Of a DNA stretch of 64,000 nt, positions 7,246 through 64,000 are shown one piece after another. The stretch comes from Eledone cirrhosa (lineage: Eukaryota), in the NCBI GenBank assembly GCA_964016885.1, contig OZ024741.1:58838001-58902000 (forward strand). Reading direction: 5' to 3'. Each line of letters begins with the position of its first letter. Position 1 is the first letter of the stretch. The position numbers and the translations under genes were made by a program. The notes beneath the pieces are model-generated. The model saw only the letters and a list, made by a program, of their open reading frames with translations. It made no database searches and was not told the origin of the DNA.

Positions 7246-8379
7246 ATCAAAACAATTATAATGAGAATTTAATTTTTTGAGTGACAATGATGATGATATC
7301 ATCTTCATTGTCATCACCGTTTAACGTCCATTTTGCATGGGTCGGACAGGTTGTTCGCTTTGAGAAACAAGTCTGGCCAGGATTGACCACACCGTACCTT
7401 GCTCTGACAGGACTATAAATTTGACCAGGGTTTTTACAGCTGAATGCCCTTCCTAACATCAACCACATTTACAGTGTATATATGAATATTCTTTACTGTA
7501 GAAATGTAATAAGATCGAAACACATCTGTTATTTTCACCAAGCTGGTTTAGAGACAAGTTTCACTGCATTCTCTTCAATTGTTTAAAGTGTTGGATCAGG
7601 TATAGGTTTTAAAATTGCAAGGATAGTCTCGGTAGATTAATATTTTTTCCCCCTCACCATATTTAGACAGTGAGACTCTGTGTGTTTGTGTGTGTGCACA
7701 CACACACACACACACACACACACTCCCCCCCTCTCTCTCTCTGTAAACATTGGAGTAATTAATTAATGAAATAATTACCAGCCACCTGAAAGCTTGTATC
7801 ACTGAATTAAAATCATCAAATGTTTTAAATTAATCAAAGTAGAAAAAAATAAAGTCATTGGATTGTAAATAGATTCTAAAATTACTTGTTACTTATTTAA
7901 ATTTATGGTGATGGTACATAGCATAGTGGTTAGGGTATTCGGCTCATAATTATAGGATAGTGAGTTTGATTCCCAGTAGCATGTTGTATCCATGAGAAAG
8001 ACACTTTATTTCACCATGTTCTAGACCAAAGGTTCTCAACGGGGTCGTTTCGGAGCTCTAGGGGGACATTTTGGAGCAAGAGGGCGTTGGGGGGCGCTGG
8101 AAGCCCCTTTAGTTTGGTAAGTTTTATAAGTCATATTTGTACGTCTCTTAGACAGCCAGTATGAATGCATTTGAATGAAGAAAACAAAGAAAATAAATAA
8201 AAGAAGCTTGTCAACGAATTCCCTAGGGAGATAAAAGAAAAATGAAAGAAATCAAAGAAAATGAAAATAAGGACGTCAACTTTTACAACAGTTACAAGAA
8301 CAATAGCAAGAAAAAGAAGCAATAGTGATGAAAGGTGTGGGTGTATACATATACATACATTCAATCATACACATACGTT

Positions 8380-8427
<48 letters not shown>

Positions 8428-8675
8428 AACACACACAGGCCGGCGTTGGTGTTTGATGAGGTTGAGAACCTGGTCAGCTTTCAGCCAGAGCTGTGGTATT
8501 TAATCTCCCTAGGTAATAAAATCTTATAGCAAAAATTTTCTCCTTACAAAAAAAACAACAACATAAATCATGTCAACATCCTTACACACTTAAATATAAA
8601 TGCATGTATATATACAAATGTATAAATCCATAGCTATATTCATACGTAAATGTATGTATGTATATATGTATGTAG

Positions 8676-8709
<34 letters not shown>

Positions 8710-8787
8710 CTACATACATACTTATATATATATATACATATATATATAAATCTACATACATACATATATATACATATATATATAAAT

Positions 8788-8818
<31 letters not shown>

Positions 8819-8952
8819 AATATACATACATACATATATATACATATATATATAAATCTACATACATACATATATAAGTATTGAAGTTTCCGTTGAAAAT
8901 TGAAAAAGTTATAGGAATGAAGAGTGCTCTATGTAAGTACCAGAGCTAAATT

Positions 8953-10704
8953 TAATGTATAATAAACAATACAATATAATTACCTCATTACCAGAGGTTT
9001 CCTGAATAAGACGAATACGAAAAACGTCCTCATTCGTTCATCGGATAAGGCAATATGTGGGTATGACACAAGACAAATTCAAAACGCGTTATTACTCACA
9101 TGTCGCATCTTTCCGACATCCAGAAAAAAGATTTACAACAGCTCTGGCTAGCAGAATATGGGATTTGAAGGACCAAGGTATCCAATATAAATTGGATTGG
9201 TCAATTTTGAACCAATCTAAAGAATATGCAAGAGGAACAAGAAGATGCACACTCTGCATAAGTGAAAAATATTGGATTTTACAGAACCTTAAATCACCAA
9301 AAACCTGCCTAAACGCAAAAACAGAAATTTTCACCAGTTGCCCACACATGAAATCACACTTGCTTTCCAGCTCATATAAACTTAACTCACTTTCAGATAC
9401 TTATCCTCCATAAACTCTTGTTCTTCACTTTCCTTAAATTATCCTCTTTACAGTCTTCTCTTTGTGATTTACTTTTATTTTTAACTTTATTTTTATTTTT
9501 ACTTCACATCCACCAGTGACCCCCCCCCCCCCCCTTACTTTTTGATTCTTTTACCTAATATCTTCAAATTCCACATTTTACTTCCCCATTTTCTTTCACT
9601 ACCTGATATCACTTGTCACTCCAGATATATTCTGTTGTTTCGCAGCCGATTTTATATTTGTACTCATTTATTCGTACGGCTGGTTTATAATTTGTATTTA
9701 TGCGTGTGAGTATGCATATGTGTGTATACGTTCTGTATATGTATACGAACGCCTCCGTATGTGCACGTGCGTACGTATATATATGTGTGTGTATGTGTGT
9801 TTTATATCTGTTTTTTACATACTTATTTATACGTGTGTGTGTATGTGGTTGAATGTATGTGTATGTATATGTATGCGTATGTGTGGGTGTGTATGTATAT
9901 ATATATATATAGTCGCGTACGTACGTGTGATTAGATATACATGTGGCGATATATATATATATATACGTGCCTCGTGTGTATGTATGTACGCATGCATGCG
10001 CTTTTGTCTGTACGTATTTATATTTATATATATATATGTGTGTGTACGTGCGTACCTATGTTTGTTTTCTATTTTCTAGTGTTAATTGATAACCCTTCCC
10101 TCTTACTTTCTCTTTGATTTAAAATTATTTTTCATTCTCATATATTGTTTCATTTTTATACATATATCGAGAATGACACTTCTTTTTACTATTACACTCC
10201 CTTCCCTCTTTATCTTACGCATATAAATGACCGCGCGTGTGTGTGTGTTTATACGCGTGCTTTCATACGCGTATGTGTATATATTTAATACCTGTATCTG
10301 GATGTGTGTTAACTATATTATCATTTTCTTTTTCAACTCATATTATATACGTATTTGTGGTCACACATACACAAATATACTTGCCCTCATATATGTACTT
10401 ACGCACACGTTTTCACCATACACATGCATTTGTACATACACACATATGTACATTTGTGAGTGCATATACATACAATACACATACCTTAACTATATTTCCT
10501 TATTTTTTTAATATATCTCTTGCATTACTTTTATTTATATATTTTTATGCCCGTTAAACTCTTGCCTTTCTTGAGGAGATTTTTCAAATATTTCACTATG
10601 TTTTAAATTGCCTTGTCCGATGAACGAATGAGAACGTTTTTCGTATTCGTCTTATTCGGGAAACCTCTGGTAATGAGGTAATTATATTGTATTGTTTATT
10701 ATAC

Positions 10705-10708
<4 letters not shown>
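8953..10708 (+). mobile_element. 5'-truncated Penelope-like element with inverted pLTR fragment
   Basis: ~102-bp inverted repeats 8953-9054 / 10607-10708 around a GIY-YIG ORF fragment and 3' UTR. Confidence 0.85.
9054..9413 (+). pseudogene. PLE GIY-YIG endonuclease C-terminal fragment (Naiad-like)
   Basis: YVGMT..FKTRYYSH..SF...T.LA..IW.LK...W.IL...RCTLCISEK...LN.KTEI..SCPH. Confidence 0.85.
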
Positions 10709-10758
<50 letters not shown>

Positions 10759-10762
10759 AATC

Positions 10763-10831
<69 letters not shown>

Positions 10832-11024
10832 CTACATATATATATATATATATATATAATATGTTGAGAAGGTAACACACCAGAGAGAGATATATAGTGC
10901 GCTATCAATAATACAGGGAAAAAACCACCAGTGTATGGAATCTATAACCTATGAAAGGCAGACTATAGACACAATAATTAAAAATATAAATTAAAGCGTA
11001 AATAAATACCTCTATAACTATATA

Positions 11025-11106
11025 ACACACGTACAAATCCAAAGATATGTTTCACCAAAAAAATTTGTTGAAAGAAATGGTCTAGTCTCGGTTCATCAGC
11101 GTGTGT
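11025..11106 (-). ncRNA. Type I hammerhead ribozyme (mirror copy)
   Basis: Reverse complement of 11578-11659. Confidence 0.8.
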
Positions 11107-11577
11107 AAGGCCATACATTTCAGACAACACTAAGAGAATTTTACAATTGACCGTCCAGCTACACGTGGGAGAGAGAAGTCACAGCGTGTTTAAGGGCAGT
11201 GAACCAGTGGCCTCTGAGAGACGAACTGCTAGAAAGGGCAGCCCAAAGCCACTCAGAGAAGTGTGCTCAACCAAACAGAGCTGGGGAAAGACTGTTATTA
11301 GGAGCGAAATATCACGATAAATTAAGGGAGGCATAGGCCGTCGTGGCCTATGCCTCCCTTAATTTATCGTGATATTTCGCTCCTAATAACAGTCTTTCCC
11401 CAGCTCTGTTTGGTTGAGCACACTTCTCTGAGTGGCTTTGGGCTGCCCTTTCTAGCAGTTCGTCTCTCAGAGGCCACTGGTTCACTGCCCTTAAACACGC
11501 TGTGACTTCTCTCTCCCACGTGTAGCTGGACGGTCAATTGTAAAATTCTCTTAGTGTTGTCTGAAATGTATGGCCTT

Positions 11578-11659
11578 ACACACGCTGATGAACCGAGACT
11601 AGACCATTTCTTTCAACAAATTTTTTTGGTGAAACATATCTTTGGATTTGTACGTGTGT
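11578..11659 (+). ncRNA. Type I hammerhead ribozyme
   Basis: Stem I acacacg/cgtgtgt; CTGATGA at 11585-11591; stem II accgaga/ttttggt; GAAA at 11631; stem III acatatc/gatttgt; GUA cleavage triplet ending at 11652. Confidence 0.85.
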
Positions 11660-11946
11660 TATATAGTTATAGAGGTATTTATTTACGCTTTAATTTATAT
11701 TTTTAATTATTGTGTCTATAGTCTGCCTTTCATAGGTTATAGATTCCATACACTGGTGGTTTTTTCCCTGTATTATTGATAGCGCACTATATATCTCTCT
11801 CTGGTGTGTTACCTTCTCAACATATTATATTTTAAAGGGCTCAGGATCTCTTCCCCTTTGAGCACATTATTTACAGGGAATAACGACGGCCTATGCCTCC
11901 GTTAATTTATCGTGATATATATATATATATATATATATAAATCTAC

Positions 11947-12004
<58 letters not shown>

Positions 12005-12020
12005 CTACATACATACATAC

Positions 12021-12066
<46 letters not shown>

Positions 12067-12181
12067 CTACATATATACATACATACATTTATGTATGCAT
12101 ATAGCTATGCATTTATATATTTGTATATATATATGTACAAGCATTTATATTTAAGTGTATATATATATATATATATATATA

Positions 12182-13072
12182 CAGGGTGTGGACGATATTT
12201 GTTCGCAATTTTCAACTGCTAATTTTATGCAAATTTTTTTTCACTTCCGTTGTCACTCTTGTCTTCATAAAAACAGTGACTATATTTCCATTATTTATTT
12301 TCAGAATAATTGATTATGAATAATTTTGAACCTCCAAATTTGTGGAAGAGACACAGAGTTCTTCTTGGAATCCGCGCTGGGAGGACAAATAAGACCAGAA
12401 GATCAATTCCCAGAATAACAAGTGGCTCGTTGTCTCATCCAAAGACGTGCCCAGAGTCATGCAGACAAAGTTTCCAGCGACAACATTGGTCTTAGGTATC
12501 ATCAGCAGTCAAGGTGACGTCATGCCACCTCACTTCTTCCCTGAGGGCCTCAAGCTGAACACCGATGGCTACATCCGCGTTCTGAACGAGGTAGTAAAGC
12601 CCTGGATCGACCAGGTAGCTGGAGGTAGGCCGTACGTATGGCAGCAAGACTCTGCGCCCTGCCATACCAGCCGAAAGACCCAAGTCTGGCTGTCAGAGAA
12701 CTTCGTCGACCACACTTCACCTGACATCTGGCCTCCCAGCTCGCCTGACTGCAACCTCCTCGACTTCTTTGTGTGGGGCGCAGTGGAACGAGACACCAAC
12801 AGATCTAGCTGCAATACGAAAGACGATCTGAAGGCCAGGCTCACAAGTGCCTTTAGGGGCCTAAGTCGGGGGACAGTGATGAAGGCCTGTAGCCGGTTCC
12901 GAGGCCACCTTGAGGCCGTCATCAAAGCCAATGGCGGGTTTATCGAGTGAGATCGAAAGAACAAGTCATGAAGACAAACTGACCCAAGTTTGATAAATAT
13001 ATCTTAAAAAATAAAACTACTGTGTTACTTTTTCCTAGACAGTAATCTTGCGAAAAAATATCGTCCGTACCA

Positions 13073-13074
<2 letters not shown>
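12182..13074 (+). mobile_element. Internally deleted Tc1/mariner DD37D (maT-like) transposon
   Basis: Imperfect ~27-bp TIRs cagggtgtggacgatatttgttcgcaa / ttgcgaaaaaatatcgtccgtaccatg, TA on the left, inside TA microsatellite. Confidence 0.85.
12310..12950 (+). pseudogene. maT-type transposase remnant
   Basis: WQQDSAP.H...WPPSSPDCNLLDFFVW with 37 residues between the last two D; the N-terminus joins DQKINSQNNKW out of frame at ~12390, so the HTH and first catalytic D are missing. Confidence 0.85.
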
Positions 13075-13124
<50 letters not shown>

Positions 13125-13261
13125 AAAGTTAAACAAGTTTCAATGAATAAATCAAAGAATGAGTTTTACAATAGAATGGAAGCACTCAACAGCTTTGGTT
13201 TTCCAGAGTTATTAATATTAATTCAAAATATTAACAAAATAGATATTCTTGTGAACAAGTA

Positions 13262-13328
13262 TATTTTATTATACATATTTCAGAGGTACTGAGTTAAGTT
13301 CAACAGTACGTCCTCATCAGATAAAATA
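13262..13328 (-). ncRNA. Minimal type I hammerhead in a pLTR-like fragment (~13120-13400)
   Basis: Minus strand: tattttat CTGATGA ggacgtactg..cagtacctct GAA atatgtat a ataaaata. Confidence 0.8.
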
Positions 13329-13514
13329 AGATGATGCATGACATACCCTGACATAGTAGATGGTTAAGATTCAGTCATGGTAGTGAGTAATATATGACAA
13401 AACTCAATATTTATATACCTTAATATTGAGAACATGAGAAAAATATATAAAACATACAATAGAGAGGGTGCGTGTGAGACAGCTTAAAAAATACATGGCA
13501 TCAATATAACAGGT

Positions 13515-16500
13515 AAAAAATTTAAAATTACTGAAGAAAGAGGAAAGAAAGAAAAGCAAAGAGGAAGAAAACAGCTGACGGGATACTATAGTTAGTAGTT
13601 GCCTCGAAAGACAAAAGAGAGTTGATTACAGAGAGAGAGAGAGACAAAGGGGAATAATTTATGTTCAAGTTTTTAGACAATTATCCATATATACAATATA
13701 TATCTAAACTTATTTGGTTGACCGTTAATATTCAAAATATTTAATTTAAGTTAGTTCAGAGTAATGAATAATATTTTAGGTTTTAAAAGTTAATAGGTAT
13801 CTGTATTAATATTAAAGTATACTATCAAGTTTAATTTCAAAGATCAAATTTTATGAAATCAGATTTAAAGGATTTACAAACACGAGAAATAAAACAATGT
13901 TTTACAACCTCACGAAAAGTAAACTTTACCAAAATTATTTATAATATTGACAACCGTTTATATAATATAATTTAGAAAATAAAAAGTTATAATTTTTAAA
14001 GAATTTATGATTAACAATTTGAGTGCCAAAAGGATAAACAGGCCTTATAATTAAACTTAAAGAGGTCTGAATTTTAAATTACATATATGTGTTAATCAAA
14101 AAATATACAAAAAATATATTGTCTAAAGACTTAAGGTGATACCTTTCAAATATACATAACATAATACAATAATACAATATAGTAAATACATTACTGAAAA
14201 TATTGTTAAAAATTAATGCTTTAGATATATCCGTTAAATTTGATAAAATAAATTAAATTATATTAAATTAAGTAATCAACATTGACAGCCGAGGATCACT
14301 TTTAATGATCACAAAAGAAACTTTGAGGAAGACCTGCCAGTTAGACTGATTGCTCCATCCAAATCGGATATTGGAGTAATCAGTAAGAATATTATTGATA
14401 GAATTCTACCTACTTTGAAATTGAGGTCTAAATTGAGCTAAATTGAGCTAAATGAAGTGATTGATTGGTATAAAAATATAGAGGATAAGAAAAACCATAA
14501 ACTCATCCAGATGGACATAACAAGCTATTACTCTTCCATTACGCCTAACCTACTAAATAAGGCTTTATCCTACGCTTACAACCATACAGATCTAACTACG
14601 GATGAAATCGATATCATATTAACTACTAGAAGAACTCTAATTAATTTCAACAATGAGTATTTGACCCACTCAGATAGAAATAGAAACTTCGACATTACCA
14701 TGGGATCATCCGACTCAGCGCAAGTCACGGATCTTCTGGGGATATTCATCTTAAGTATGATAAATAGAAAACTGCCGGAGATTACCGGTGGTTTATATAG
14801 GGACGATATTTTATTTACGGTAGTTAAACACAACAATACAGAACTAAATAGGGTAAAGAAAAATATAATTGAATTCTTTAAAAATTACGACCTTAAATTA
14901 GAGGTAGAAAGTGGTACCAAAATAGTTAATTTCCTTGATGTTACCCTTAACTTAAACTCTGGTTTTTATTACCCTTTCCATAAGCCCAATGAAAACTTAA
15001 ATTACGTTAGTTATTACTCTAATCACCGTAAATCTGTGAAAAATGCAATTGTCAATAATGTACAGAAACGCATATCTAGAATATCTGCTAATAAATCAAT
15101 ATTTGATGAAAAAGCAGGATATTACAATGATGCGCTAAGAAAGGCAGGTTATAAAAATAATATAGAATATATAGACAATAATAATCTGAATCTTAATCCT
15201 GATAAAAATAATAATAATATGACTGGCTTATATAAACGAAATTCTAAAAATTATAATTCAAACTCCTGTACTGTGAATAAATCGGGGAAAAGAAACAGAA
15301 CTAAATCAGTTATATGGTCCCCCCTCCCCTGCTTCTGTAGCAGTAAGAACACCACTAGCTAATTTATTCTTTAAGGCTTTAGATAATTCCTTCCTTAGTC
15401 AACATAAATACCGTTCCATATTTAATAGACACACAATTAAGCTTTCTTATTCTACAACTATGAATATAGCTCAAAACATCGCTAAACTAAATAGTTAAAT
15501 TCTAAACCAAAATCAGCATAATGCTGTTAGTAATAATGTTAATATAAATAATAATAAATCGAAATGTAATTGTAGAAATAAACCAGATTGTCCTCTGCAA
15601 AATAATTGTCTGGATAGAAATTTGGTGTATAAATGCACCGTAAAAACAAATAACAACACATACAACTACATAGAGGAAACTTCTTCGACATTTAAATCGA
15701 GATTTGCGAATCATAAATGCTCGTTTTCGAATTTTAATAGGAAGTCTTCGACTTCTTTATCACAACTTATATGGTCATTAAAAGACAAACATTTAAAATA
15801 CTCGATGTTTTGGACGAAGCTTTGTAATAGTAAAATATATTCGAACTCGTCTATATCAACTAACTGCAACCTCTGCACAAAGGAGACCCTATTAATAATT
15901 ACTAATTATGAAAACTTAATTAACAAAAAAAGTGAATTATTCTCAAATTGCCTCCAGAAAGCTTTGTCTACATTCCAAGCCTCACAAAAAGTCAGGAAAA
16001 AAAAACTAAACAAACAGGCTTTAATTTTTGACGTTTCTTATCAACTGTTGGACCTAAAACGTTTTAACAGTTTATAAAACTTTAATAATATTTTATTTTT
16101 TAATAATTTTAGATATTTATAATTTAGATTCAGATCTTTATTTATTTGTCTCGGTTTTAAATATATAATTTGGATATTTAATTTGTAAATTTACTGCTTA
16201 TAATTGAACCGTAGATCATTCATGCATTTATATATTTTAATCATTTTGGGTATGTTCTGGGACTCAGAAAGATAGATCTGCACTTATATACTTTTATATA
16301 TATCTAGGTATAAATATTACAAACCATACTAGTCGACAAATATTGGTCTTTCTCTCCACTGAACTGGAGGTAAAACTACAATTATAGCAGTACTAATAAT
16401 GGTTATAATTATTTATTTATTAAATGTATATCGTTTCATTAATACCCATAATTCTGTCTATATATAGTTGTATAAATATGTTTATCTAGTGTAATAACAT

Positions 16501-17335
16501 GCTCCTAGTTTCATTTATAAATAATTTAGATACTCAAATGACTAATCCCTGGATCTTCGAAATTATATAATGTGTATTACTTAATTTAATATAATTTAAT
16601 TTATTTTATCAAATTTAAAGGATATATCTAAAGCATTAATTTTTAACAATATTTTCAGTAATGTATTTACTATATTGTATTATTGTATTATGTTATGTAT
16701 ATTTGAAAGGTATCACCTTAAGTCTTTAGACAATATAATTTTTGTATATTTTTTTTATTAACACGTATATGTAATTTAAAATTCAGACCTCTTTAAGTTT
16801 AATTATAAGGCCTGTTTATCCTTTTGGCACTCAAATTGTTAATAATAAATTCTTTAAAAATTATAACTGTTTTTATTTTCTAAATTATATTATATAAACG
16901 GTTGTCAATATTATAAATAATTTTGGTAAAGTTTACCTTTCGTGAGGTTGTAAAAACATTATGTTTTCTTTCTCGTGTTTGTAAATCCTTTAAATTTGAT
17001 TTCATAAAATTTGATCTTTGAAATTAAACTTGATAGTATACTTTAATATTAATACAGATACCTATTAACTTTTAAAACCTAAAATATTATTCATTACTCT
17101 GAACTAACTTAAATTAAATATTTTGAATATTAACGGTCAACCAAATAAGTTTAGATATATATTGTATATATGGATAATTGTCTAAAAACTTGAACATAAA
17201 TTATTCCCCTTTGTCTCTCTCTCTCTCTGTAATCAACTCTCTTTTGTCTTTCGAGGCAACTACTAACTATAGTATCCCGTCAGCTGTTTTCTTCCTCTTT
17301 GCTTTCTTTTCTTTCCTCAGTAATTTAAAAAATTT
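13515..17335 (+). mobile_element. Penelope-like element (Naiad-like), 5'-truncated, with ~760-bp inverted terminal repeats
   Basis: 13515-14276 is the reverse complement of 16576-17335 with few mismatches; encloses RT and GIY-YIG coding sequence. Confidence 0.9.
14285..16077 (+). pseudogene. PLE reverse transcriptase + Cys linker + GIY-YIG endonuclease (disrupted)
   Basis: ITFNDHKRNF..RLIAPSKSDIG, MDITSYYSSI, TMGSSDSAQ, GGLYRDD, NFLDVTLNL, YPFHKPN..YV..SNH; CNCR...CPL...C; VYKC, CNLCTKE, LINKKSEL..C; frameshifts and stops present. Confidence 0.92.
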
Positions 17336-17338
17336 TAA

Positions 17339-17389
17339 ATCTGCCTATGGGTAACAAGATGGCCGCCATCTTGTAACCCATAGGCAGAT
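17339..17389. repeat. 25-bp-arm hairpin
   Basis: atctgcctatgggtaacaagatggc-c-gccatcttgtaacccataggcagat, 1 mismatch. Confidence 0.85.
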
Positions 17390-17949
17390 CTCACACAATG
17401 CAGCCTCGACAGAAGAGTACTGCTCGACTATGGCAGACAATTGATATACCCAGGACACCATAGTGAAATACCAATATATGGAACATTACATTTATGTAAC
17501 ATTCTTTCCTTATTTTAATTTATATTCCTTTTGAAGTTCCAATGAGCTGCTCTATCTTTACCTATGTTAATTATTTTTAACTGAACCAGATCAATAATGA
17601 TATATAATCATTTGATCCAGAAATATTATATGGAGTAGCGAAACAATTGTAAACAGACATTATTATTATTAATATTATTATTATTATTCTCTACATTCCT
17701 TATCTCAAACTAAAATATGTTGACAATCTTTTAATAATGTCTTCCTTGTGAAATTTGTGGTCTTGTTTTGCTTAACTAATGAATATTTCCAGCTTTGTGC
17801 ACCTAACCTCTGCATGAACCAAGCCACCTAGCTGCTTTCCACTGCATATTGCACATTGAGCACATGCCTTTACGCTTTGGCTTCTAAATAATTCACCAAT
17901 CTCTCCTCTCCTATCTCCATCTCTCTCTTTAAGATTAGTTACTCTTGAA

Positions 17950-17987
<38 letters not shown>

Positions 17988-17991
<4 letters not shown>

Positions 17992-18113
17992 GTTTCTACT
18001 TTTGGCACAAGGCCAGCAATTACCCAGTGTATTACTGGTACTTTATTTTATCGACCCCGTAAGGATGAAAGGCAAAGTTAACCTCGGCGGGATTTGAACT
18101 CAGAATGGCAAGG
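17988..18113 (-). mobile_element. SINE family A copy
   Basis: Near-identical to 1108-1235. Confidence 0.8.
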
Positions 18114-21100
18114 GCCGCCGTTGTTGAAAAGAGCAGTGGCCTTTGACCTGGCAATAAAAACTGGAGACAAAATTCTTTCTGTACCAAAACCAAGGCACAC
18201 ACACAGAGGTTTGTGTGTGTGTATGTATATATATATGTGTGTGTGTGTGTATATATATGTGTGTGTGTGTATCTATCTATATATGTATATAAGGAATACA
18301 GATATTTCTCTCTCACTGTCACCAAGCTTCTCAATTCATTTGTTGCTACTAAGTATTTTATTTTGCTACGAGGTATTTTATTTTGCAAGGTACTATTTCC
18401 CCCTGAGTTTGTGATTTCAGAGAAAGGTAAGAAATTCTTTATAGTTTGCATCTCTTGTATTTTGACTTTACAGTTTGAATTGTAGAATTGTCTATCCACT
18501 CAAAATATTACAGCAGCTAACAGTGAAATATAGAATTTAAAAAAAAAGAAGCTTTTTCAACTGAGATCAAATCTTTGAGAACATTCATGTCTATTTTTCA
18601 AAAATATATAATTTGAAATAGTTTGCTTTTGTTTTGGACTGAAACTTTTTTTGTATTTAATTCGTACGAGTATTTTTTAAAGATTCTAACATAACTTGAT
18701 TTGGCCCAGTAATCTACTGATATCAAAATCAGTAGTATATTGAAAAATGGAAAAATAGGGTAGGGGATTTCGAGGGGCAAAAGGGGACGTTTGGCCGAAA
18801 TGGGTTGAGAACCTTTGTTCTAGACCACTCAGCTTGTAAACATGAGTTGTACCTGTAATTCAAAGGACCAAGTTCATCATCTCTGGTGATACTTTGGTAG
18901 ATTTCATTTTTCAATCTTTAAAGCTCAATAGAATAGGTATCAGTAATTTACCTGAGAACTTTAAGTGTATTCGTGTCTACAGAATGCACTGCCTATTCCA
19001 TGTTAATTTCACTGTAAGGTTGTTCTGTTGTTTGAACAACTGAAACATGTCATTGGAACTGACAAAGATCAAAACAATTGTAATGAGAATTTGAGTGATG
19101 ATGATGATAATGAATATATGAATATTTTTCACTATGGAGATCTGATAAGATCGAAACATGTCTATAATCTACTAGTAACAGTAGGCTTCTCCCTATAAAA
19201 TTGCCTTCATTCTTAAAGAAAACTTTTCCTTTTGAGGATGTTATTGTTGTTTTTCTAAACTGATTCATCTCCCTTTTTTTTTTTTAAAGATTATAAGGTA
19301 GGGTTTTGAGGAAGATTTGGTAACTATTTATAGCAAGAAAACTATTTATAGCAAGAAAACTGACCATATTGATCTTTTGTTGGCTTCTGAAGATGTTGGG
19401 TAAAAGTCATTATAATTTTGTAAGCTAGAGTTCCAAAGATTTTTGTACATTAAAGTTCCAAAGATTACTTTTATTTTGAAGAAACTGTAATGTTTTCGTA
19501 TGAATTGAACAGAGTTCCATGTTTTAATATTGACTTGTGGTGAGGGTATTGTATAAAAGCCATTGGCCATTTTGTAAGTCAAAGTTCCAAAGCTTGAACA
19601 TTGATATAATATATAGATGTGCAACAGTTATTGGGTTTTCTTGAGAAGAATTTTAAAAACATTTCAGAAATGGCCATGTAATAATCTAAGGCATAGTTTC
19701 CTTCTTATTGTGCAACGTTGATCTCCGTTTTGATCTTGATCTTTTCATATAATACTTTTCTTATCTCCTTGATTTTATTCTAACTAATCTGCTATAGATT
19801 CTTTGGATTGTAAGCTGATAATTCCATGCACAGAGACAGCCCAGAGTATTAAACAACAAGAAATAGAAAACATAGTAACAAAGGAAATATCTATAATAAT
19901 AAATGTGAGTTTCTGTGCATATGTTCACATGGTTTTCTGGCTCTGGCAAATATACGTATTGTATTTAAGTATTAAACTAAATAAACCAAAAAATCAAATA
20001 TGTCATTGCAAGTTCGTATCATTTTCCCTCACAAAAGAAACTTTTGCTTTTTAATTATAAATGATACACTAGACTGCTTTCTCTTGGAATAGTGGATATG
20101 GGATATTCAAGAGTTGATAAGAAAAACTGGTTTATTTGTAAATTTGTACAGATTCGGATTTCATCAAAGTTGTTGTACTGGGATTTTTCAGTCATGCCTC
20201 AGCTTATTGCTGGTTCATATTCCATCTTTTCTTAATTAATGCGACAGTGCACATTGAAAATATAGTTTTCCCTTTTCATATATTTGTATATAGATTGATA
20301 GATACATTACAAAACAAACACACACATACCTACACAAGCAGAAAACTGTCTAGATAAGGTGATATTTCTGCTAGTTCTAAATATAAAATAGAATAAAATA
20401 AAAAACAGCTGAAAAGTTGACATCTATTATATAGAGAGAAGCCATGGAAAAGCAACAGCCATTGAAACACTTAAAGTGTATGTTGTGTTTTAATTCTCAT
20501 GGAAGGACCTCTGCCAGTTTTCACGATGAGTGTTCAAGTTGTATGAACACTGGGGAACTCTGCTAATGCAATTAACATGTAAGTGACTGAGCATTGCACA
20601 GAGATGTGTACTCTTTATGTAATTTTCAGGAAGATTGAGCATGACTATATGTGACAAGACTGGTCCTTTGAATGCTAGGTACAGTCAATCTTGTGTTATA
20701 ATGTAAGTAGCTGAGCATGACTCTGTCATATGTAACCCTAACGTAATTCGCAGGGAGATTCAGCAAGATACAAGTGGGACATGGCTGGCCTGTTGAATTA
20801 CAGGCACAATCCATTCAACAAACTTACAAACATTTTCTGTGTACCCAGTTTCTCTCAGAATGCATGAGTTGAGCCATTTGGTTGAGATGACATCCAGTTG
20901 AATTGAACACAGCACCTAGTGATTGCAAAGCAAACTTCTTAATCATTACCATACTATGTCCCTACTTAAAGTGCATGCTGTATTTTAATTCCCATAGTTT
21001 GGGGATTGTGGATCATACATAGGAAGTTCTCTTCAATATTGACAGCTTCACAGAAGTTGGATGTCACAAGAATACCAGAATACAATAATCCAAGAATAGA

Positions 21101-32212: not shown

Positions 32213-32534
32213 TCATTTTACGTCCGCTTTTTCCCTGCTTGCATGGGTGGGACGGGAACTGATTCTGGCTTGATTTCTACAGCTGGATGCTCTTCCTAAC
32301 ACCAACCTCATTTAAAGTGAGTGCCTGGTGCTTTTTTGCCGTGGCACCTCCACGACCACTTTGCAGTGGAATGATATGGACCCCAGTCCTATCATCTCAT
32401 TTCTACAGCTGAGTAAACTGGAGCAATGTGAAATAAAGTGTCTTGCTCAAGGAAACAACACATCACCCGGTCTGAGAATTGAACTCAACCTTTTGATTGC
32501 AAGACCAATGCTCTAACCACTAAGCCATGTGCCT
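32213..32534 (-). mobile_element. SINE family C copy
   Basis: Full-length homologue of 47182-47505. Confidence 0.85.
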
Positions 32535-51091: not shown

Positions 51092-51428
51092 ATGATGATG
51101 ATGATGATGATGGTAAAGATGATCATGATGATGGTATGTTGGTGATGATAATTATGGTGGTGTTGATGTTGATGGTGGTGATAATTCATCATCACCATGA
51201 TCATTATCACATGATCATCATCACATGATCATCATCACATGATCATCATCATCACCATGATCATCATCATCACATGATGATCATTATCACCATCATCATC
51301 ATTATCACCATCACCATCATCAAACACATGATCATCATCATCACCATGACATTCATCATCACCGTGATCATCACCACCACCATCTTCATCATTATCACCA
51401 CCATCCTACCCCTATCATCATTATCATC
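51092..51428. repeat. Degenerate (GAT)n then (ATC)n microsatellite
   Basis: Seen directly; the orientation flips at ~51185. Confidence 0.9.
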
Positions 51429-51439
51429 TGGTATCTTCT

Positions 51440-54400
51440 ACTCTAATGCTACCTGTGTCTTACCTTACAGGTGTGTATGTATATGACAAGACTAAGACTC
51501 TAATGCTACCTGTGTCTTACCTTACAGGTGTGTATGTATATGACAAGACTAAGACTCTAATGCTACCTGTGTCTTACCTTACAGGTGTGTATGTATATGA
51601 CAAGACTAAGACTCTAATGCTACCTGTATCTTACCTTACAGGTGTGTATGTATATGACAAGTCTAAGACTCTAATACTACCTGTGTCTTACCTTACAGGT
51701 GTGTATGTATATGACAAGACTAAGACTCTAATGCTACTTGTGTCTTACCTTACAGGTGTGTATGTATATGACAACACTAAGACTCTAATGCTACCTGTGT
51801 CTTACCTTACAGGTGTGTATGTATATGACAAGTCTAAGACTCTAATACTACCTGTGTCTTACCTTACAGGTGTGTATGTATATGACAAGACTAAGACTCT
51901 AATGCTACCTGTGTCTTACCTTACAGGTGTGTATGTATATGACAAGACTAAGACTCTAATGCTACCTGTGTCTTACCTTACAGGTGTGTATGTATATGAC
52001 AAGACTGTGACTCTAATGCTACCTGTGTCTTACCTTACAGGTGTGTATGTATATGACAAGACTAAGACTCTAATACTACCTGTGTCTTACCTTACAGGTG
52101 TGTATGTATATGACAAGACTGTGACTCTAATGCTACCTGTGTCTTACCTTACAGGTGTGTATGTATATGACAAGACTAAGACTCTAATGCTACCTGTGTC
52201 TTACCTTACAGGTGTGTATGTATAATGACAAGACTAAGACTCTAATGCTACTTGTGTCTTACCTTACAGGTGTGTATGTATATGACAAGACTAAGACTCT
52301 AATGCTACCTGTGTCTTACCTTACAGGTGTGTATGTATATGACAAGACTAAGACTCTAATGCTACCTGTGTCTTACCTTACAGGTGTGTATGTATATGAC
52401 AAGACTAAGACTCTAATGCTACCTGTGTCTTACCTTACAGGTGTGTATGTATATGACAAGACTAAGACTCTAATGCTACTTGTGTCTTACCTTACAGGTG
52501 TGTATGTATATGACAAGACTAAGACTCTAATGCTACCTGTGTCTTACCTTACAGGTGTGTATGTATATGACAAGACTAAGACTCTAATGCTACCTGTGTC
52601 TTACCTTACAGGTGTGTATGTATATGACAAGACTAAGACTCTAATGCTACCTGTGTCTTACCTTACAGGTGTGTATGTATATGACAAGACTAAGACTCTA
52701 ATGCTACTTGTGTCTTACCTTACAGGTGTGTATGTATATGACAAGACTAAGACTCTAATGCTACCTGTGTCTTACCTTACAGGTGTGTATGTATATGACA
52801 AGACTAAGACTCTAATGCTACCTGTGTCTTACCTTACAGGTGTGTATGTATATGACAAGACTAAGACTCTAATGCTACCTGTGTCTTACCTTACAGGTGT
52901 GTATGTATATGACAAGACTAAGACTCTAATGCTACTTGTGTCTTACCTTACAGGTGTGTATGTATATGACAAGACTAAGACTCTAATGCTACCTGTGTCT
53001 TACCTTACAGGTGTGTAGGTATATGACAAGACTAAGACTCTAATGCTACCTGTGTCTTACCTTACAGGTGTGTATGTATATGACAAGACTAAGACTCTAA
53101 TGCTACCTGTGGCTTACCTTACAGGTGTGTATGTATATGACAAGACTAAGACTCTAATGCTACCCGTGTCTTACCTTACAGGTGTGTATGTATATGACAA
53201 GACTATGTCTCTAATGCTACCTGTGTCTTACCTTACAGGTGTGTATGTATATGACAAGACTGTGACTCTAATACTACCTGTGTCTTACCTTACAGGTGTG
53301 TATGTATATGACAAGACTGTGACTCTAATGCTACCTGTGTCTTACCTTACAGGTGTGTATGTATATGACAAGACTAAGACTCTAATGCTACTTGTGTCTT
53401 ACCTTACAGGTGTGTATGTATATGACAAGACTAAGACTCTAATGCTACCTGTGTCTTACCTTACAGGTGTGTATGTATATGACAAGACTAAGACTCTAAT
53501 GCTACTTGTGTCTTACCTTACAGGTGTGTATGTATATGACAAGACTAAGACTCTAATGCGACCTGTGTCTTACCTTACAGGTGTGTATGTATATGACAAG
53601 ACTATGTCTCTAATGCTACCTGTGTCTTACCTTACAGGTGTGTATGTATATGACAAGACTAAGTCTCTAATACTACCTGTGTCTTACCTTACAGGTGTGT
53701 ATGTATATGACAAGACTGTGACTCTAATGCTACCTGTGTCTTACCTTACAGGTGTGTATGTATATGACAAGACTAAGACTCTAATGCTACCTGTGTCTTA
53801 CCTTACAGGTGTGTATGTATATGACAAGACTAAGACTCTAATGCTACTTGTGTCTTACCTTACAGGTGTGTATGTATATGACAAGACTAAGACTCTAATG
53901 CTACCTGTGTCTTACCTTACAGGTGTGTATGTATATGACAAGACTATGTCTCTAATGCTACCTGTGTCTTACCTTACAGGTGTGTATGTATATGACAAGA
54001 CTAAGTCTCTAATACTACCTGTGTCTTACCTTACAGGTGTGTATGTATATGACAAGACTAAGACTCTAATGCTACCTGTGTCTTACCTTACAGGTGTGTA
54101 TGTATATGACAAGACTAAGACTCTAATGCTACCTGTGTCTTACCTTACAGGTGTGTATGTATATGACAAGACTAAGACTCTAATGCTACCTGTGTCTTAC
54201 CTTACAGGTGTGTATGTATATGACAAGACTAAGACTCTAATGCTACCTGTGTCTTACCTTACAGGTGTGTATGTATATGACAAGACTATGTCTCTAATGC
54301 TACCTGTGTCTTACCTTACAGGTGTGTATATATATGACAAGACTAAGACTCTAATGCTACCTGTGTCTTACCTTACAGGTGTGTATGTATATGACAAGAC

Positions 54401-57400
54401 TATGTCTCTAATGCTACCTGTGTCTTACCTTACAGGTGTGTATGTATATGACAAGACTAAGTCTCTAATACTACCTGTGTCTTACCTTACAGGTGTGTAT
54501 GTATATGACAAGACTAAGACTCTAATGCTACCTGTGTCTTACCTTACAGGTGTGTATGTATATGACAAGACTAAGACTCTAATGCTACCTGTGTCTTACC
54601 TTACAGGTGTGTATGTATATGACAAGACTATGTCTCTAATGCTACCTGTGTCTTACCTTACAGGTGTGTATATATATGACAAGACTAAGACTCTAATGCT
54701 ACCTGTGTCTTACCTTACAGGTGTGTATGTATATGACAAGACTATGTCTCTAATGCTACCTGTGTCTTACCTTACAGGTGTGTATGTATATGACAAGACT
54801 AAGTCTCTAATACTACCTGTGTCTTACCTTACAGGTGTGTATGTATATGACAAGACTAAGACTCTAATGCTACCTGTGTCTTACCTTACAGGTGTGTATG
54901 TATATGACAAGACTAAGACTCTAATGCTACCTGTGTCTTACCTTACAGGTGTGTATGTATATGACAAGACTAAGACTCTAATGCTACCTGTGTCTTACCT
55001 TACAGGTGTGTATGTATATGACAAGACTAAGACTCTAATGCTACCTGTGTCTTACCTTACAGGTGTGTATGTATATGACAAGACTAAGACTCTAATGCTA
55101 CCTGTGTCTTACCTTACAGGTGTGTATATATATGACAAGACTAAGACTCTAATGCTACCTGTGTCTTACCTTACAGGTGTGTATGTATATGACAAGACTA
55201 AGACTCTAATGCTACCTGTGTCTTACCTTACAGGTGTGTAGGTATATGACAAGACTAAGACTCTAATGCTACCTGTGTCTTACCTTACAGGTGTGTAGGT
55301 ATATGACAAGACTAAGTCTCTAATGCTACCTGTGTCTTACCTTACAGGTGTGTATGTATATGACAAGACTAAGACTCTAATGCTACCTGTGTCTTACCTT
55401 ACAGGTGTGTATGTATATGACAAGACTAAGACTCTAATGCTACTTGTGTCTTACCTTACAGGTGTGTATGTATATGACAAGACTATGTCTCTAATGCTAC
55501 CTGTGTCTTACCTTACAGGTGTGTATGTATATGACAAGACTAAGACTCTAATGCTACCTGTGTCTTACCTTACAGGTGTGTATGTATATGACAAGACTAA
55601 GTCTCTAATGCTACCTGTGTCTTACCTTACAGGTGTGTATGTATATGACAAGACTAAGACTCTAATGCTACCTGTGTCTTACCTTACAGGTCTGTATGTA
55701 TATGACAAGACTAAGTCTCTAATGCTACCTGTGTCTTACCTTACAGGTGTGTATGTATATGACAAGACTAAGACTCTAATGCTCTCTGTGTCTTACCTTA
55801 CAGGTGTGTATGTATATGACAAGACTAAGACTCTAATGCTACCTGTGTCTTACCTTACAGGTGTGTATGTATATGACAAGACTAAGACTCTAATGCTACC
55901 TGTGTCTTACCTTACAGGTGTGTATGTATATGACAAGACTAAGACTCTAATGCTACCTGTGTCTTACCTTACAGGTGTGTATGTATATGACAACACTAAG
56001 ACTCTAATGCTACCTGTGTCTTACCTTACAGGTGTGTATGTATATGACAACACTAAGACTCTAATGCTACCTGTGTCTTACCTTACAGGTGTGTATGTAT
56101 ATGACAAGACTAAGACTCTAATGCTACCTGTGTCTTACCTTACAGGTGTGTATGTATATGACAAGACTAAGACTCTAATGCTACTTGTGTCTTACCTTAC
56201 AGGTGTGTATGTATATGACAAGACTAAGACTCTAATGCTACCTGTGTCTTACCTTACAGGTGTGTATGTATATGACAAGACTATGTCTCTAATGCTACCT
56301 GTGTCTTACCTTACAGGTGTGCATGTATATGACAAGACTAAGTCTCTAATACTACCTGTGTCTTACCTTACAGGTGTGTATGTATATGACAAGACTAAGA
56401 CTCTAATGCTACCTGTGTCTTACCTTACAGGTGTGTATGTATATGACAAGACTAAGACTCTAATGCTACCTGTGTCTTACCTTACAGGTGTGTATGTATA
56501 TGACAAGACTAAGACTCTAATGCTACCTGTGTCTTACCTTACAGGTGTGTATGTATATGACAAGACTAAGACTCTAATGCTACCTGTGTCTTACCTTACA
56601 GGTGTGTATGTATATGACAAGACTAAGACTCTAATGCTACCTGTGTCTTACCTTACAGGTGTGTATGTATATGACAAGACTAAGACTCTAATGCTACCTG
56701 TGTCTTACCTTACAGGTGTGTATGTATATGACAAGACTAAGACTCTAATGCTACCTGTGTCTTACCTTACAGGTGTGTATGTATATGACAAGACTAAGAC
56801 TCTAATGCTACCTGTGTCTTACCTTACAGGTGTGTATGTATATAACAAGACTAAGTCTCTAATGCTACCTGTGTCTTACCTTACAGGTGTGTATGTATAT
56901 GACAAGAGTAAGACTCTAATACTACCTGTGTCTTACCTTACAGGTGTGTATGTATATGACAAGACTAAGTCTCTAATACTACCTGTGTCTTACCTTACAG
57001 GTGTGTAGGTATATGACAAGACTAAGTCTCTAATGCTACCTGTGTCTTACCTTACAGGTGTGTATGTATATGACAAGACTAAGACTCTAATACTACCTGT
57101 GTCTTACCTTACAGGTGTGTATGTATATGACAAGACTGTGACTCTAATACTACCTGTGTCTTACCTTACAGGTGTGTATGTATATGACAAGACTAAGACT
57201 CTAATGCTCTCTGTGTCTTACCTTACAGGTGTGTATGTATATGACAAGACTAAGACTCTAATGCTACCTGTGTCTTACCTTACAGGTGTGTATGTATATG
57301 ACAAGACTAAGACTCTAATGCTACCTGTGTCTTACCTTACAGGTGTGTATGTATATGACAAGACTAAGACTCTAATGCTACCTGTGTCTTACCTTACAGG

Positions 57401-60400
57401 TGTGTATGTATATGACAAGACTAAGACTCTAATGCTACTTGTGTCTTACCTTACAGGTGTGTATGTATATGACAAGACTAAGACTCTAATGCTACCTGTG
57501 TCTTACCTTACAGGTGTGTATGTATATGACAAGACTAAGACTCTAATGCTACCTGTGTCTTACCTTACAGGTGTGTATGTATATGACAAGACTAAGACTC
57601 TAATGCTACCTGTGTCTTACCTTACAGGTGTGTATGTATATGACAAGACTAAGACTCTAATGCTACTTGTGTCTTACCTTACAGGTGTGTATGTATATGA
57701 CAAGACTAAGACTCTAATGCTACCTGTGTCTTACCTTACAGGTGTGTATGTATATGACAAGACTAAGACTCTAATGCTACCTGTGTCTTACCTTACAGGT
57801 GTGTATGTATATGACAAGACTAAGACTCTAATGCTACCTGTGTCTTACCTTACAGGTGTGTATGTATATGACAAGACTAAGACTCTAATGCTACTTGTGT
57901 CTTACCTTACAGGTGTGTATGTATATGACAAGACTAAGACTCTAATGCTACCTGTGTCTTACCTTACAGGTGTGTAGGTATATGACAAGACTAAGACTCT
58001 AATGCTACCTGTGTCTTACCTTACAGGTGTGTATGTATATGACAAGACTAAGACTCTAATGCTACCTGTGGCTTACCTTACAGGTGTGTATGTATATGAC
58101 AAGACTAAGACTCTAATGCTACCTGTGTCTTACCTTACAGGTGTGTATGTATATGACAAGACTATGTCTCTAATGCTACCTGTGTCTTACCTTACAGGTG
58201 TGTATCTATATGACAAGACTGTGACTCTAATACTACCTGTGTCTTACCTTACAGGTGTGTATGTATATGACAAGACTGTGACTCTAATGCTACCTGTGTC
58301 TTACCTTACAGGTGTGTATGTATATGACAAGACTAAGACTCTAATGCTACCTGTGTCTTACCTTACAGGTGTGTATGTATATGACAAGACTAAGACTCTA
58401 ATGCTACTTGTGTCTTACCTTACAGGTGTGTATGTATATGACAAGACTAAGACTCTAATGCGACCTGTGTCTTACCTTACAGGTGTGTATGTATATGACA
58501 AGACTATGTCTCTAATGCTACCTGTGTCTTACCTTACAGGTGTGTATGTATATGACAAGACTAAGTCTCTAATACTACCTGTGTCTTACCTTACAGGTGT
58601 GTATGTATATGACAAGACTGTGACTCTAATGCTACCTGTGTCTTACCTTACAGGTGTGTATGTATATGACAAGACTAAGACTCTAATGCTACCTGTGTCT
58701 TACCTTACAGGTGTGTATGTATATGACAAGACTAAGACTCTAATGCTACTTGTGTCTTACCTTACAGGTGTGTATGTATATGACAAGACTAAGACTCTAA
58801 TGCTACCTGTGTCTTACCTTACAGGTGTGTATGTATATGACAAGACTAAGACTCTAATGCTACCTGTGTCTTACCTTACAGGTGTGTATGTATATGACAA
58901 GACTAAGACTCTAATGCTACCTGTGTCTTACCTTACAGGTGTGTATGTATATGACAAGACTAAGACTCTAATGCTACTTGTGTCTTACCTTACAGGTGTG
59001 TATGTATATGACAAGACTAAGACTCTAATGCTACCTGTGTCTTACCTTACAGGTGTGTATGTATATGACAAGACTAAGACTCTAATGCTACCTGTGTCTT
59101 ACCTTACAGGTGTGTATGTATATGACAAGACTAAGACTCTAATGCTACCTGTGTCTTACCTTACAGGTGTGTATGTATATGACAAGACTAAGACTCTAAT
59201 GCTACTTGTGTCTTACCTTACAGGTGTGTATGTATATGACAAGACTAAGACTCTAATGCTACCTGTGTCTTACCTTACAGGTGTGTAGGTATATGACAAG
59301 ACTAAGACTCTAATGCTACCTGTGTCTTACCTTACAGGTGTGTATGTATATGACAAGACTAAGACTCTAATGCTACCTGTGGCTTACCTTACAGGTGTGT
59401 ATGTATATGACAAGACTAAGACTCTAATGCTACTTGTGTCTTACCTTACAGGTGTGTATGTATATGACAAGACTAAGACTCTAATGCGACCTGTGTCTTA
59501 CCTTACAGGTGTGTATGTATATGACAAGACTATGTCTCTAATGCTACCTGTGTCTTACCTTACAGGTGTGTATGTATATGACAAGACTAAGTCTCTAATA
59601 CTACCTGTGTCTTACCTTACAGGTGTGTATGTATATGACAAGACTGTGACTCTAATGCTACCTGTGTCTTACCTTACAGGTGTGTATGTATATGACAAGA
59701 CTAAGACTCTAATGCTACCTGTGTCTTACCTTACAGGTGTGTATGTATATGACAAGACTAAGACTCTAATGCTACTTGTGTCTTACCTTACAGGTGTGTA
59801 TGTATATGACAAGACTAAGACTCTAATGCTACCTGTGTCTTACCTTACAGGTGTGTATGTATATGACAAGACTATGTCTCTAATGCTACCTGTGTCTTAC
59901 CTTACAGGTGTGTATGTATATGACAAGACTAAGTCTCTAATACTACCTGTGTCTTACCTTACAGGTGTGTATGTATATGACAAGACTAAGACTCTAATGC
60001 TACCTGTGTCTTACCTTACAGGTGTGTATGTATATGACAAGACTAAGACTCTAATGCTACCTGTGTCTTACCTTACAGGTGTGTATGTATATGACAAGAC
60101 TAAGACTCTAATGCTACCTGTGTCTTACCTTACAGGTGTGTATGTATATGAAAAGACTAAGACTCTAATGCTACCTGTGTCTTACCTTACAGGTGTGTAT
60201 GTATATGACAAGACTATGTCTCTAATGCTACCTGTGTCTTACCTTACAGGTGTGTATATATATGACAAGACTAAGACTCTAATGCTACCTGTGTCTTACC
60301 TTACAGGTGTGTATGTATATGACAAGACTATGTCTCTAATGCTACCCGTGTCTTACCTTACAGGTGTGTATGTATATGACAAGACTAAGTCTCTAATACT

Positions 60401-63400: not shown

Positions 63401-64000
63401 CAAGACTAAGACTCTAATGCTACCTGTGTCTTACCTTACAGGTGTGTATGTATATGACAAGACTAAGACTCTAATGCTACCTGTGTCTTACCTTACAGGT
63501 GTGTATGTATATGACAAGACTAAGACTCTAATGCTACCTGTGTCTTACCTTACAGGTGTGTATGTATATGAAAAGACTAAGACTCTAATGCTACCTGTGT
63601 CTTACCTTACAGGTGTGTATGTATATGACAAGACTATGTCTCTAATGCTACCTGTGTCTTACCTTACAGGTGTGTATATATATGACAAGACTAAGACTCT
63701 AATGCTACCTGTGTCTTACCTTACAGGTGTGTATGTATATGACAAGACTATGTCTCTAATGCTACCTGTGTCTTACCTTACAGGTGTGTATGTATATGAC
63801 AAGACTAAGTCTCTAATACTACCTGTGTCTTACCTTACAGGTGTGTATGTATATGACAAGACTAAGACTCTAATGCTACCTGTGTCTTACCTTACAGGTG
63901 TGTATGTATATGACAAGACTAAGACTCTAATGCTACCTGTGTCTTACCTTACAGGTGTGTATGTATATGACAAGACTATGTCTCTAATGCTACCTGTGTC
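51440..64000. repeat. 57-bp minisatellite, ~220 units, runs off the window
   Basis: Unit actctaatgctacctgtgtcttaccttacaggtgtgtatgtatatgacaagactaag. Confidence 0.98.

What the first reader, a model, noticed from the sequence alone, without database searches (positions are those of the whole stretch)
8019..18825. 10.8-kb hAT element that splits a SINE and encloses a cluster of ribozyme-bearing and other elements
Seen: perfect 14-bp TIRs and a perfect 8-bp TSD (ttctagac) 10.8 kb apart. Removing the interval restores a continuous family B SINE (..acactttatttcaccatgttctagac|cactcagcttgtaaacatgagttgtacc). Inside are two PLEs with inverted pLTRs, a ~980-bp foldback, another hammerhead pLTR fragment, a maT mariner, a SINE, a hairpin and unexplained non-repetitive sequence (8130-8580, 17700-18750). 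Known: CA.nGGTTCTCAAC-type TIRs and an nTCTAGAn target fit the hAT Charlie/Buster group. Inference: either a smaller non-autonomous element that became an insertion sink, or a large cargo-carrying hAT that moved as a unit. The short perfect ends cannot tell these apart.
Basis: partly seen in the sequence, partly recalled or inferred. Interest (0 to 1): 0.72.

Follow-up and report, generated by a model that had tools for sequence, protein, structure and literature searches.

The report
Buster transposon turned retroelement landing pad
This is one of hundreds of copies of a non-coding DNA transposon that likely swelled from about 2.6 kb to 10.8 kb after landing, as other jumping genes inserted into its internal microsatellites; the ribozyme-bearing cargo was found in no other copy examined, but the family's transposase-coding parent is an unusually large composite of about 7.4 kb.

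Summary
The 14-bp TIRs, 8-bp TSD and split SINE are real. The element belongs to a Buster-type hAT family (at least 448 copies share its internal deletion junction); 27 paired copies span 1.3-17.6 kb, four longer than this one. The 'non-repetitive' stretches are family core plus the end of a third Penelope element, not host exons. The cargo (three Penelope pieces, a retrozyme, a maT mariner, a SINE) is shared with no other copy examined; one junction tested is unique genome-wide. Across 66 copies, 62 of 238 microsatellite intervals hold inserts versus 7 in 155 kb of unique core (48-fold): an insertion sink. Hammerheads are no denser inside than in flanks. Unexpected: the transposase-coding parent is a ~7.4-kb composite carrying SINE-like pieces, a microsatellite panel and half of a second hAT transposase, and did move as a unit. 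Earlier scan notes report similar microsatellite nests elsewhere in this genome. Known mechanisms, new family, modest interest.

The parts
7881..8018 (+). 5' part of the old host SINE split by the insertion
   Evidence: 70-75% to other window copies; rejoins across the junction
8019..8026 (.). left 8-bp TSD
   Evidence: identical to 18818-18825
8027..8040 (+). left 14-bp TIR
   Evidence: 493 exact family left ends, control 0
8027..8345 (+). family core, left end and segment A
   Evidence: 921 candidates, best others 92%
8346..8437 (.). core (CATA)n/(CA)n tract; empty here, holds inserts in 11 of 44 copies
8438..8605 (+). family core, segment B
8580..8880 (.). left half of the core's (TA)n-centred palindrome; main insertion site
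   Evidence: arms 87% to 12060-12175; 22 of 27 B-G intervals hold inserts
8881..10707 (+). PLE1: 5'-truncated Penelope (GIY-YIG remnant 9054-9400, 3' UTR, inverted pLTR copy 8953-9054); hammerhead-like motif at 10617-10680 with a variant core
   Evidence: left boundary inferred
10854..11918 (+). non-LTR retrozyme: monomer 11345-11918 with type I hammerhead at about 11578-11660, plus a 486-bp 100% inverted 5' copy
   Evidence: 2382 candidates, 98% copies, tandem 541-bp units elsewhere; motif scan
11915..12178 (.). right half of the core palindrome
12181..13073 (+). internally deleted maT (DD37D) mariner in (TA)n
   Evidence: 2558 candidates, 95-96%; DDE_3 weak; spacing
13121..17337 (+). PLE2: Penelope with broken RT and GIY-YIG ORF (about 14284-16077), inverted pLTR 13121-14283 carrying a minus-strand hammerhead near 13265-13330; direct 3' end cut short
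   Evidence: arms 96.5%; family copies 88-95%; 41-49% to a 704-aa PLE ORF
17338..17952 (+). PLE3: 3' end of a third Penelope family, with a 30-bp 5' inversion (the 'hairpin'), ending in (TA)n
   Evidence: 2714 candidates, 92-97%; GIY-YIG upstream in 4 of 4 copies tested
17986..18117 (+). young SINE, 3'-truncated and fused to core segment K by a deletion that likely removed core segments G-J
   Evidence: 93-96% to window copies; junction unique in the genome
18118..18708 (+). family core, segments K and Z
   Evidence: 1422 candidates, best others 94%
18697..18719 (+). junction of the founding deletion that removed about 4.7 kb (second-transposase remnant and the Buster ORF) from the parent
   Evidence: 448 matches at <=1 mismatch, control 0; parent layout
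18804..18817 (-). right 14-bp TIR
18818..18825 (.). right 8-bp TSD
18826..18870 (+). 3' part of the split host SINE

Best explanation
This is one copy of a several-hundred-copy, non-coding Buster-type hAT subfamily whose core of about 2.6 kb was likely inserted into the SINE by the family's transposase and then likely grew in place to 10.8 kb as Penelope elements, a retrozyme, a mariner and a SINE inserted into its internal (TA)n tracts. Shown: family membership, the core map, the founding deletion from a ~7.4-kb transposase-coding parent, cargo private to this copy among those examined, and strong concentration of inserts in microsatellite intervals across copies. Inferred: trans-mobilisation, the order (landing first, cargo later), and endonuclease or TA-target preference as the cause. 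Each tract type draws its own guest: (CATA)n an RLE-type LINE, (GATA)n an L1/Tx1-like LINE in fixed orientation, (TA)n Penelopes, retrozymes and mariners.
For: Ends are high-copy and paired with their own TSDs. Spans 1.3-17.6 kb with different interiors. The window's 9.2-kb interior is matched by none of 20 other copies on the same strand; a genome search with it returned only single-component Penelope hits among 29 scored candidates; its SINE|K junction occurs once while the founding junction occurs 448 times. 62 of 238 microsatellite intervals (28.7 kb) versus 7 cases (4 independent) in 155 kb of unique core hold an insert of at least 250 non-repeat bases, 48-fold. Same-age control inside parent copies: the microsatellite-free right 4.9 kb is nearly constant while the left part varies. 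Sister subfamilies with the same TIRs but without these tracts stay near 0.7 kb (9 of 40 left ends) or 1.2-5.0 kb (18 of 40). The 12 (GATA)n inserts are 71-97% alike with different 5' ends. Best-hit identities of guests are equal to or higher than the core's: retrozyme 98, PLE3 97, mariner 96, PLE2 95, core 94. Printed precedent for microsatellite bias of PLEs (PMC8557442) and Tx1 LINEs (PMC4494074).
Against: PLE2 is about as diverged from its relatives (95%) as the core (94%), so it could have been present in a donor copy that was excised without trace. No empty allele and no cargo-free allele of this locus was seen. Some cargo in this family did move as a unit (a Helitron-like 0.5-1.5 kb insert at one junction in 4 parent copies at different sites), and L029/L057 carry similar inserts in the same tract (93%). 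DNA searches score at most 40 candidates, so absence of a duplicate is not proven. About half the copies were chosen as best hits to the window's ends.
Confidence: 0.86

Rival explanations
1. The 10.8-kb element, or most of it, was assembled elsewhere and transposed here as a cargo-laden unit.
For: The parent moved at about 7.4 kb and, with the Helitron-like insert, above 8 kb; TIRs and TSD are perfect; PLE2 is about as old as the core.
Against: No sibling shares the cargo; the retrozyme arms are 100% identical and its family 98%; every long copy examined has a different interior.
Confidence: 0.08
2. The element is a Pack-TIR that captured host gene sequence at 8130-8580 or 17700-18750.
For: The source of core segments A, B, K, Z, X2 and X3 in the parent was not traced, so an ancient capture of host DNA by the parent is possible.
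Against: Both intervals are family core or Penelope sequence; no ORF of 90 aa there other than simple-repeat or SINE readings; no match of these segments outside family copies in about 265 kb of background.
Confidence: 0.03
3. The two ends come from different copies joined by deletion or misassembly, and the matching TSD is chance.
For: Target preference makes TSDs resemble each other; tandem insertions at one target occur (L029, L076).
Against: The SINE rejoins across the site; core segments are in parent order; short-read contigs cross both outer junctions with 0 differences (possibly the source sample, so not independent).
Confidence: 0.03

Closest known systems
Buster family of hAT transposons (TcBuster, AnBuster; MITE Mar of Drosophila willistoni)
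   Same: 8-bp TSD with central TA, 14-bp TIRs, parent transposase of about 594 aa 54-59% identical to proteins named ZBED8, SCAND3, FAM200; non-autonomous derivatives by internal deletion as for Mar (PMC3517528, passages).
   Different: Described Busters are 2.5-3.0 kb (PMC12637253, passages); this parent is about 7.4 kb with 4.9 kb of foreign sequence ahead of the ORF, including half of a second hAT transposase.
Tx1 in Tx1D (Xenopus) and Tx1-Mar/SINEU in Mariner-N4_AMi (crocodilians); Kibi and Koshi
   Same: Retroelements piling into a non-autonomous DNA transposon; Tx1 LINEs specific for microsatellites (PMC4494074, passages).
   Different: Here the target is the microsatellite, not the transposon (the same LINE end sits by GATA repeats outside the element too), and three tract types each draw a different clade.
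Penelope-like elements and non-LTR retrozymes
   Same: Inverted 5'-truncated copies, (TA)n bias (PMC8557442, passages); tandem monomers with a type I hammerhead (bioRxiv 10.64898/2026.07.22.740005, first fifth read).
   Different: Nothing different; they are guests, and hammerhead density inside equals that of flanks.
Pack-TIRs, e.g. multicopy Pack-hAT-N8_XT
   Same: TIR element carrying foreign DNA to several sites with distinct TSDs (PMC8277862, passages); true of the parent.
   Different: Identified cargo is transposon debris and microsatellites; no host gene source found.

Membership tests
hAT, Buster family | 8-bp TSD | tested here: met
   (20 of 27 paired copies, at most 1 mismatch)
hAT, Buster family | TSD consensus nnnTAnnn (PMC3517528) | tested here: met
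   T at position 4 in 20 of 20, A at position 5 in 19 of 20
hAT, Buster family | short TIRs (14-16 bp) | tested here: met
   14 bp perfect
hAT, Buster family | Buster-type transposase in an element with the same ends | tested here: met
   parent ORF 79% to P0001; relatives named ZBED5/8, SCAND3, FAM200; none in the window copy
hAT, Buster family | placement in the Buster clade on a tree with reference transposases | not tested
   no named reference transposases were held; assignment rests on homolog names and TSD
hAT, Buster family | transposition activity | not testable with these tools
   longest open frames 575-588 aa in 4 of 82 matches, none shown complete
Pack-TIR | captured non-transposon host sequence with an identifiable parental copy | tested here: not met
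   all window cargo is repeat-derived; source of the parent's A, B, K, Z, X2, X3 not traced
Pack-TIR | same cargo at several sites with distinct TSDs | tested here: not met
   not met for the window's cargo; met for the parent's cargo
Penelope-like element (PLE1, PLE2, PLE3) | PLE RT and/or C-terminal GIY-YIG, inverted pLTR copy at the 5' end | tested here: met
   Pfam itself gave no hit on the window ORFs, so this rests on similarity and motifs
non-LTR retrozyme (10854-11918) | non-coding tandem monomers, each with a type I hammerhead | tested here: met
   541-bp period, 4 units in L102 and 2 in L099; motif with stems I-III; no ORF of 90 aa
non-LTR retrozyme (10854-11918) | self-cleavage and circular RNA | not testable with these tools
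   Rfam gave no hammerhead hit at gathering score; free folding did not give the ribozyme fold
maT (DD37D) mariner | 37 residues between second and third catalytic Asp | tested here: met
   counted in the 185-aa ORF 12393-12950
L1/Tx1 clade (guest of the GATA tract in other copies) | ORF1 plus APE-RT; clade placement on an RT tree | tested here: inconclusive
   APE and RT domains found; no tree built, the Tx1 label is inferred

The most novel reading that the evidence does not exclude
A giant composite Buster, the only transposase-coding form of its family, acts as a mobile multi-target landing pad: it spreads an ordered panel of (CATA)n, (TA)n and (GATA)n tracts that three unrelated retroelement groups prefer over equivalent tracts elsewhere, so a DNA transposon seeds retroelement nests and itself carries on moving some of them.
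Probability: 0.12. Interest if true: 0.6.

Novelty: new variant of a known kind. Interest (0 to 1): 0.32.

Why it matters
The window element itself is ordinary nesting. Two things have some value. First, the autonomous form is a ~7.4-kb composite, about 2.5 times the printed Buster size, showing that a natural Buster tolerated kilobases of cargo, including half of another hAT transposase, through a burst of at least 80 copies. Second, several hundred same-age copies offer the same microsatellite targets in the same context, a ready-made in vivo assay of target choice and insertion rate (a GATA tract of about 10 bp took a LINE in 12 of 38 copies). The genome-size effect is small: about 4 kb times roughly 600 copies, under 0.1% of 3.0 Gb (my estimate).

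Tried and rejected
Empty or cargo-free allele: laying 7 run-stretch pairs over two calls found none; the one joint from 8014 to 18842 has 23 other letters between and is a paralogous SINE; an orthologous contig of organism A (about 94%) stops at 19101, short of the junction; three RAD-seq runs do not cover the site. Organism A shows very low summed depth on the core and retrozyme at 90% likeness, which hints at a burst after the split but is no copy number. Ribozyme enrichment: rejected, 20 motifs in 329 kb of inserts versus 16 in 225 kb of flanks, shuffles 0-1; that insert set included a few mis-chained gaps later removed. Rfam found no hammerhead; free-energy folds did not recover the ribozyme fold. 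Pfam was nearly blind to these transposases and PLE ORFs. No remnant of either transposase in the window copy. Shared-by-descent test of inserts: 12 pairs align over 70% of both; those inspected differ at their 5' ends (L021/L039, L033/L160), L029/L057 remains open. A looser first count (68 of 252) was replaced by the stricter one; 31 gaps between non-adjacent segments, including the window's own, were left out of the count. The core tree is star-like and did not resolve sub-lineages well. Sequence look-up in earlier findings returned nothing.
Full report
Observation. The window is G000:C2:58838001-58902000 in a 3.0-Gb assembly; its repeats look octopus-like to me (recalled, not tested). The TIRs (8027-8040, 18804-18817) and TSDs (8019-8026, 18818-18825) are exact. 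Keeping one TSD, the flanks rejoin into a SINE that aligns across the junction to 6 window copies and in 21 of 26 junction-reaching hits in fetched loci. Short-read contigs cross both outer junctions without differences, though they may come from the source sample.

Family. The left end has 921 candidates, the right 1422; a left-end 19-mer occurs 493 times against 0 for the reversed control. Of the first 40 listed left ends, 9 are 0.7-kb MITEs, 18 are a subfamily 'T' of about 2.5 kb with the C-terminal half of a transposase, 10 share the window's longer core, and 3 were unresolved. The T protein's relatives are named ZBED5/8, SCAND3 and FAM200, Buster-derived genes by my recall. In 27 copies with the window's core and both ends, spans run from 1,285 to 17,583 bp, median 4,492, with four longer than the window's; 20 of 27 have matching TSDs with central TA, the Buster signature (PMC3517528, passages). 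Two of the 27 later proved to be parent-type copies.

Parent. L117 and L141 carry a Buster ORF inside segment Z. Fetching 40 more copies that hold the ORF's N-terminus showed the same layout or a deletion or rearrangement of it in all 40: left TIR, A, (CATA)n, B, a (TA)n-centred palindrome, SINE-like G and H, I, (GATA)n, J, K, Z, then residues 402-792 of a different hAT transposase (80-85% to P0030, Dimer_Tnp_hAT, 25% to the Buster protein), two further segments, the Buster ORF and the right end, about 7.4 kb. No simple 2.5-3 kb autonomous copy, the printed size range (PMC12637253, passages), was among them. 82 matches to the N-terminus pass E 1e-60; four have open frames of 575-588 aa, none shown complete. 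The window's subfamily is one internal deletion of about 4.7 kb whose junction (18708/18709) occurs 448 times. A Helitron-like insert (A|T site, TC and CTAG ends; label recalled) sits at one junction in 4 parent copies at different sites, so cargo-laden versions did transpose.

Window cargo. PLE1 (8881-10707), a retrozyme (10854-11918; 541-bp tandem units elsewhere, 98% copies, 2382 candidates), a DD37D mariner (12181-13073), PLE2 (13121-17337), PLE3 (17338-17952) and a young SINE fused to segment K by a deletion that likely removed G-J. All start or end in (TA)n or (CA)n. Inverted 5' copies and (TA)n bias are standard for Penelope-like elements (PMC8557442, passages), and tandem hammerhead monomers define non-LTR retrozymes (bioRxiv 10.64898/2026.07.22.740005, first of five parts read). 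My scan finds canonical type I motifs at 11585 (+), 11099 (-) and 13320 (-); the PLE1 motif has a variant core. The stretches called non-repetitive are core or PLE3.

Sink versus cargo. None of 20 other copies shares the window's interior on the same strand; a search with the 9.2-kb interior returned only Penelope components among 29 scored candidates; the SINE|K junction is unique at up to 2 mismatches. In 66 copies, 62 of 238 microsatellite intervals (28.7 kb) carry an insert of at least 250 non-repeat bases, against 7 cases, 4 independent, in 155 kb of unique core: 48-fold. By interval: (CATA)n 11 of 44, mostly an RT plus restriction-like-endonuclease LINE and a short partner; palindrome 22 of 27, Penelopes, retrozymes, LINEs; G-H 1 of 29; (GATA)n 12 of 38, all one orientation of an APE-RT LINE, 71-97% alike with different 5' ends; J-K 13 of 46; K-Z 3 of 54. 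In parent copies the microsatellite-free right part stays at 3.8-6.0 kb while the left part ranges 1.2-8.7 kb. Guests are as young as or younger than the core by best-hit identity; the window core is 2.2% from the majority of 55 copies. The preference is for the repeat, not the transposon: 22 of 23 ends of the GATA LINE in all loci sit by GATA repeats, inside or outside the element, and hammerhead motifs are no denser in inserts than in flanks.

Against and open. PLE2 is nearly as old as the core; no intermediate or empty allele was found; searches score few candidates; about half the copies were best hits to the window's ends; L029/L057 may share an insert by descent.

Comparison and novelty. 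It works like Tx1 in Tx1D or Tx1-Mar in Mariner-N4_AMi and like Kibi and Koshi in microsatellites (PMC4494074, passages). It fails the Pack-TIR test for the window's cargo (PMC8277862, passages). Seven paper searches (listings and abstracts only, apart from the papers named) showed no description of this family or of a composite Buster with a second transposase remnant; PMC13282606 (passages) gives only class totals, and its supplements and Repbase/Dfam were not seen. Earlier scan notes on this genome report ACAT-homing LINEs, Penelope ends stacked in (TA)n and satellites growing in hAT copies; I treat them as leads, and my own counts agree with the first two. Verdict: real element, insertion sink, known mechanisms; the oversized composite parent makes it a variant. 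Interest 0.32.

Noticed in passing
L027, L145, L148, L151, L160, L139, L030, L033 (I-J interval): An L1/Tx1-like LINE group, 5.2-6.0 kb when full length, inserts into (GATA)n in one orientation; 22 of 23 ends found sit by GATA repeats. GATA was not among the targets in the passages I read (PMC4494074).
   Followed up: partly
L021, L039, L066, L076, L060:5087-8410: An RLE-type LINE with an 1108-aa open frame and (CATA)n tails, plus a short non-coding partner, occupy the A-B tract.
   Followed up: partly
   Followed up: no
L029 and L076: Two family members sit in tandem at one target with the same 8-bp sequence at each junction; a possible route to composite elements like the parent.
   Followed up: no
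G000:C10:25.9-26.84 Mb: Nine near-identical right-end hits spaced about 50-70 kb apart suggest a tandem segmental array that copied one insertion.
   Followed up: no
window 51312-64000: A 57-bp satellite of at least 218 near-identical units fills the end of the window.
   Followed up: no
L027:6630-7280: Another perfect foldback, of a different family, sits at the centre of the same core palindrome in this copy.
   Followed up: no
L117, L145-L149, L151: A parent sub-lineage lacks 273 bp that include the start of the Buster ORF yet still spread to several sites.
   Followed up: partly
window 32473-32527 (-): The only Rfam hit is a tRNA-like head of the same SINE family that the element splits.
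   Followed up: no
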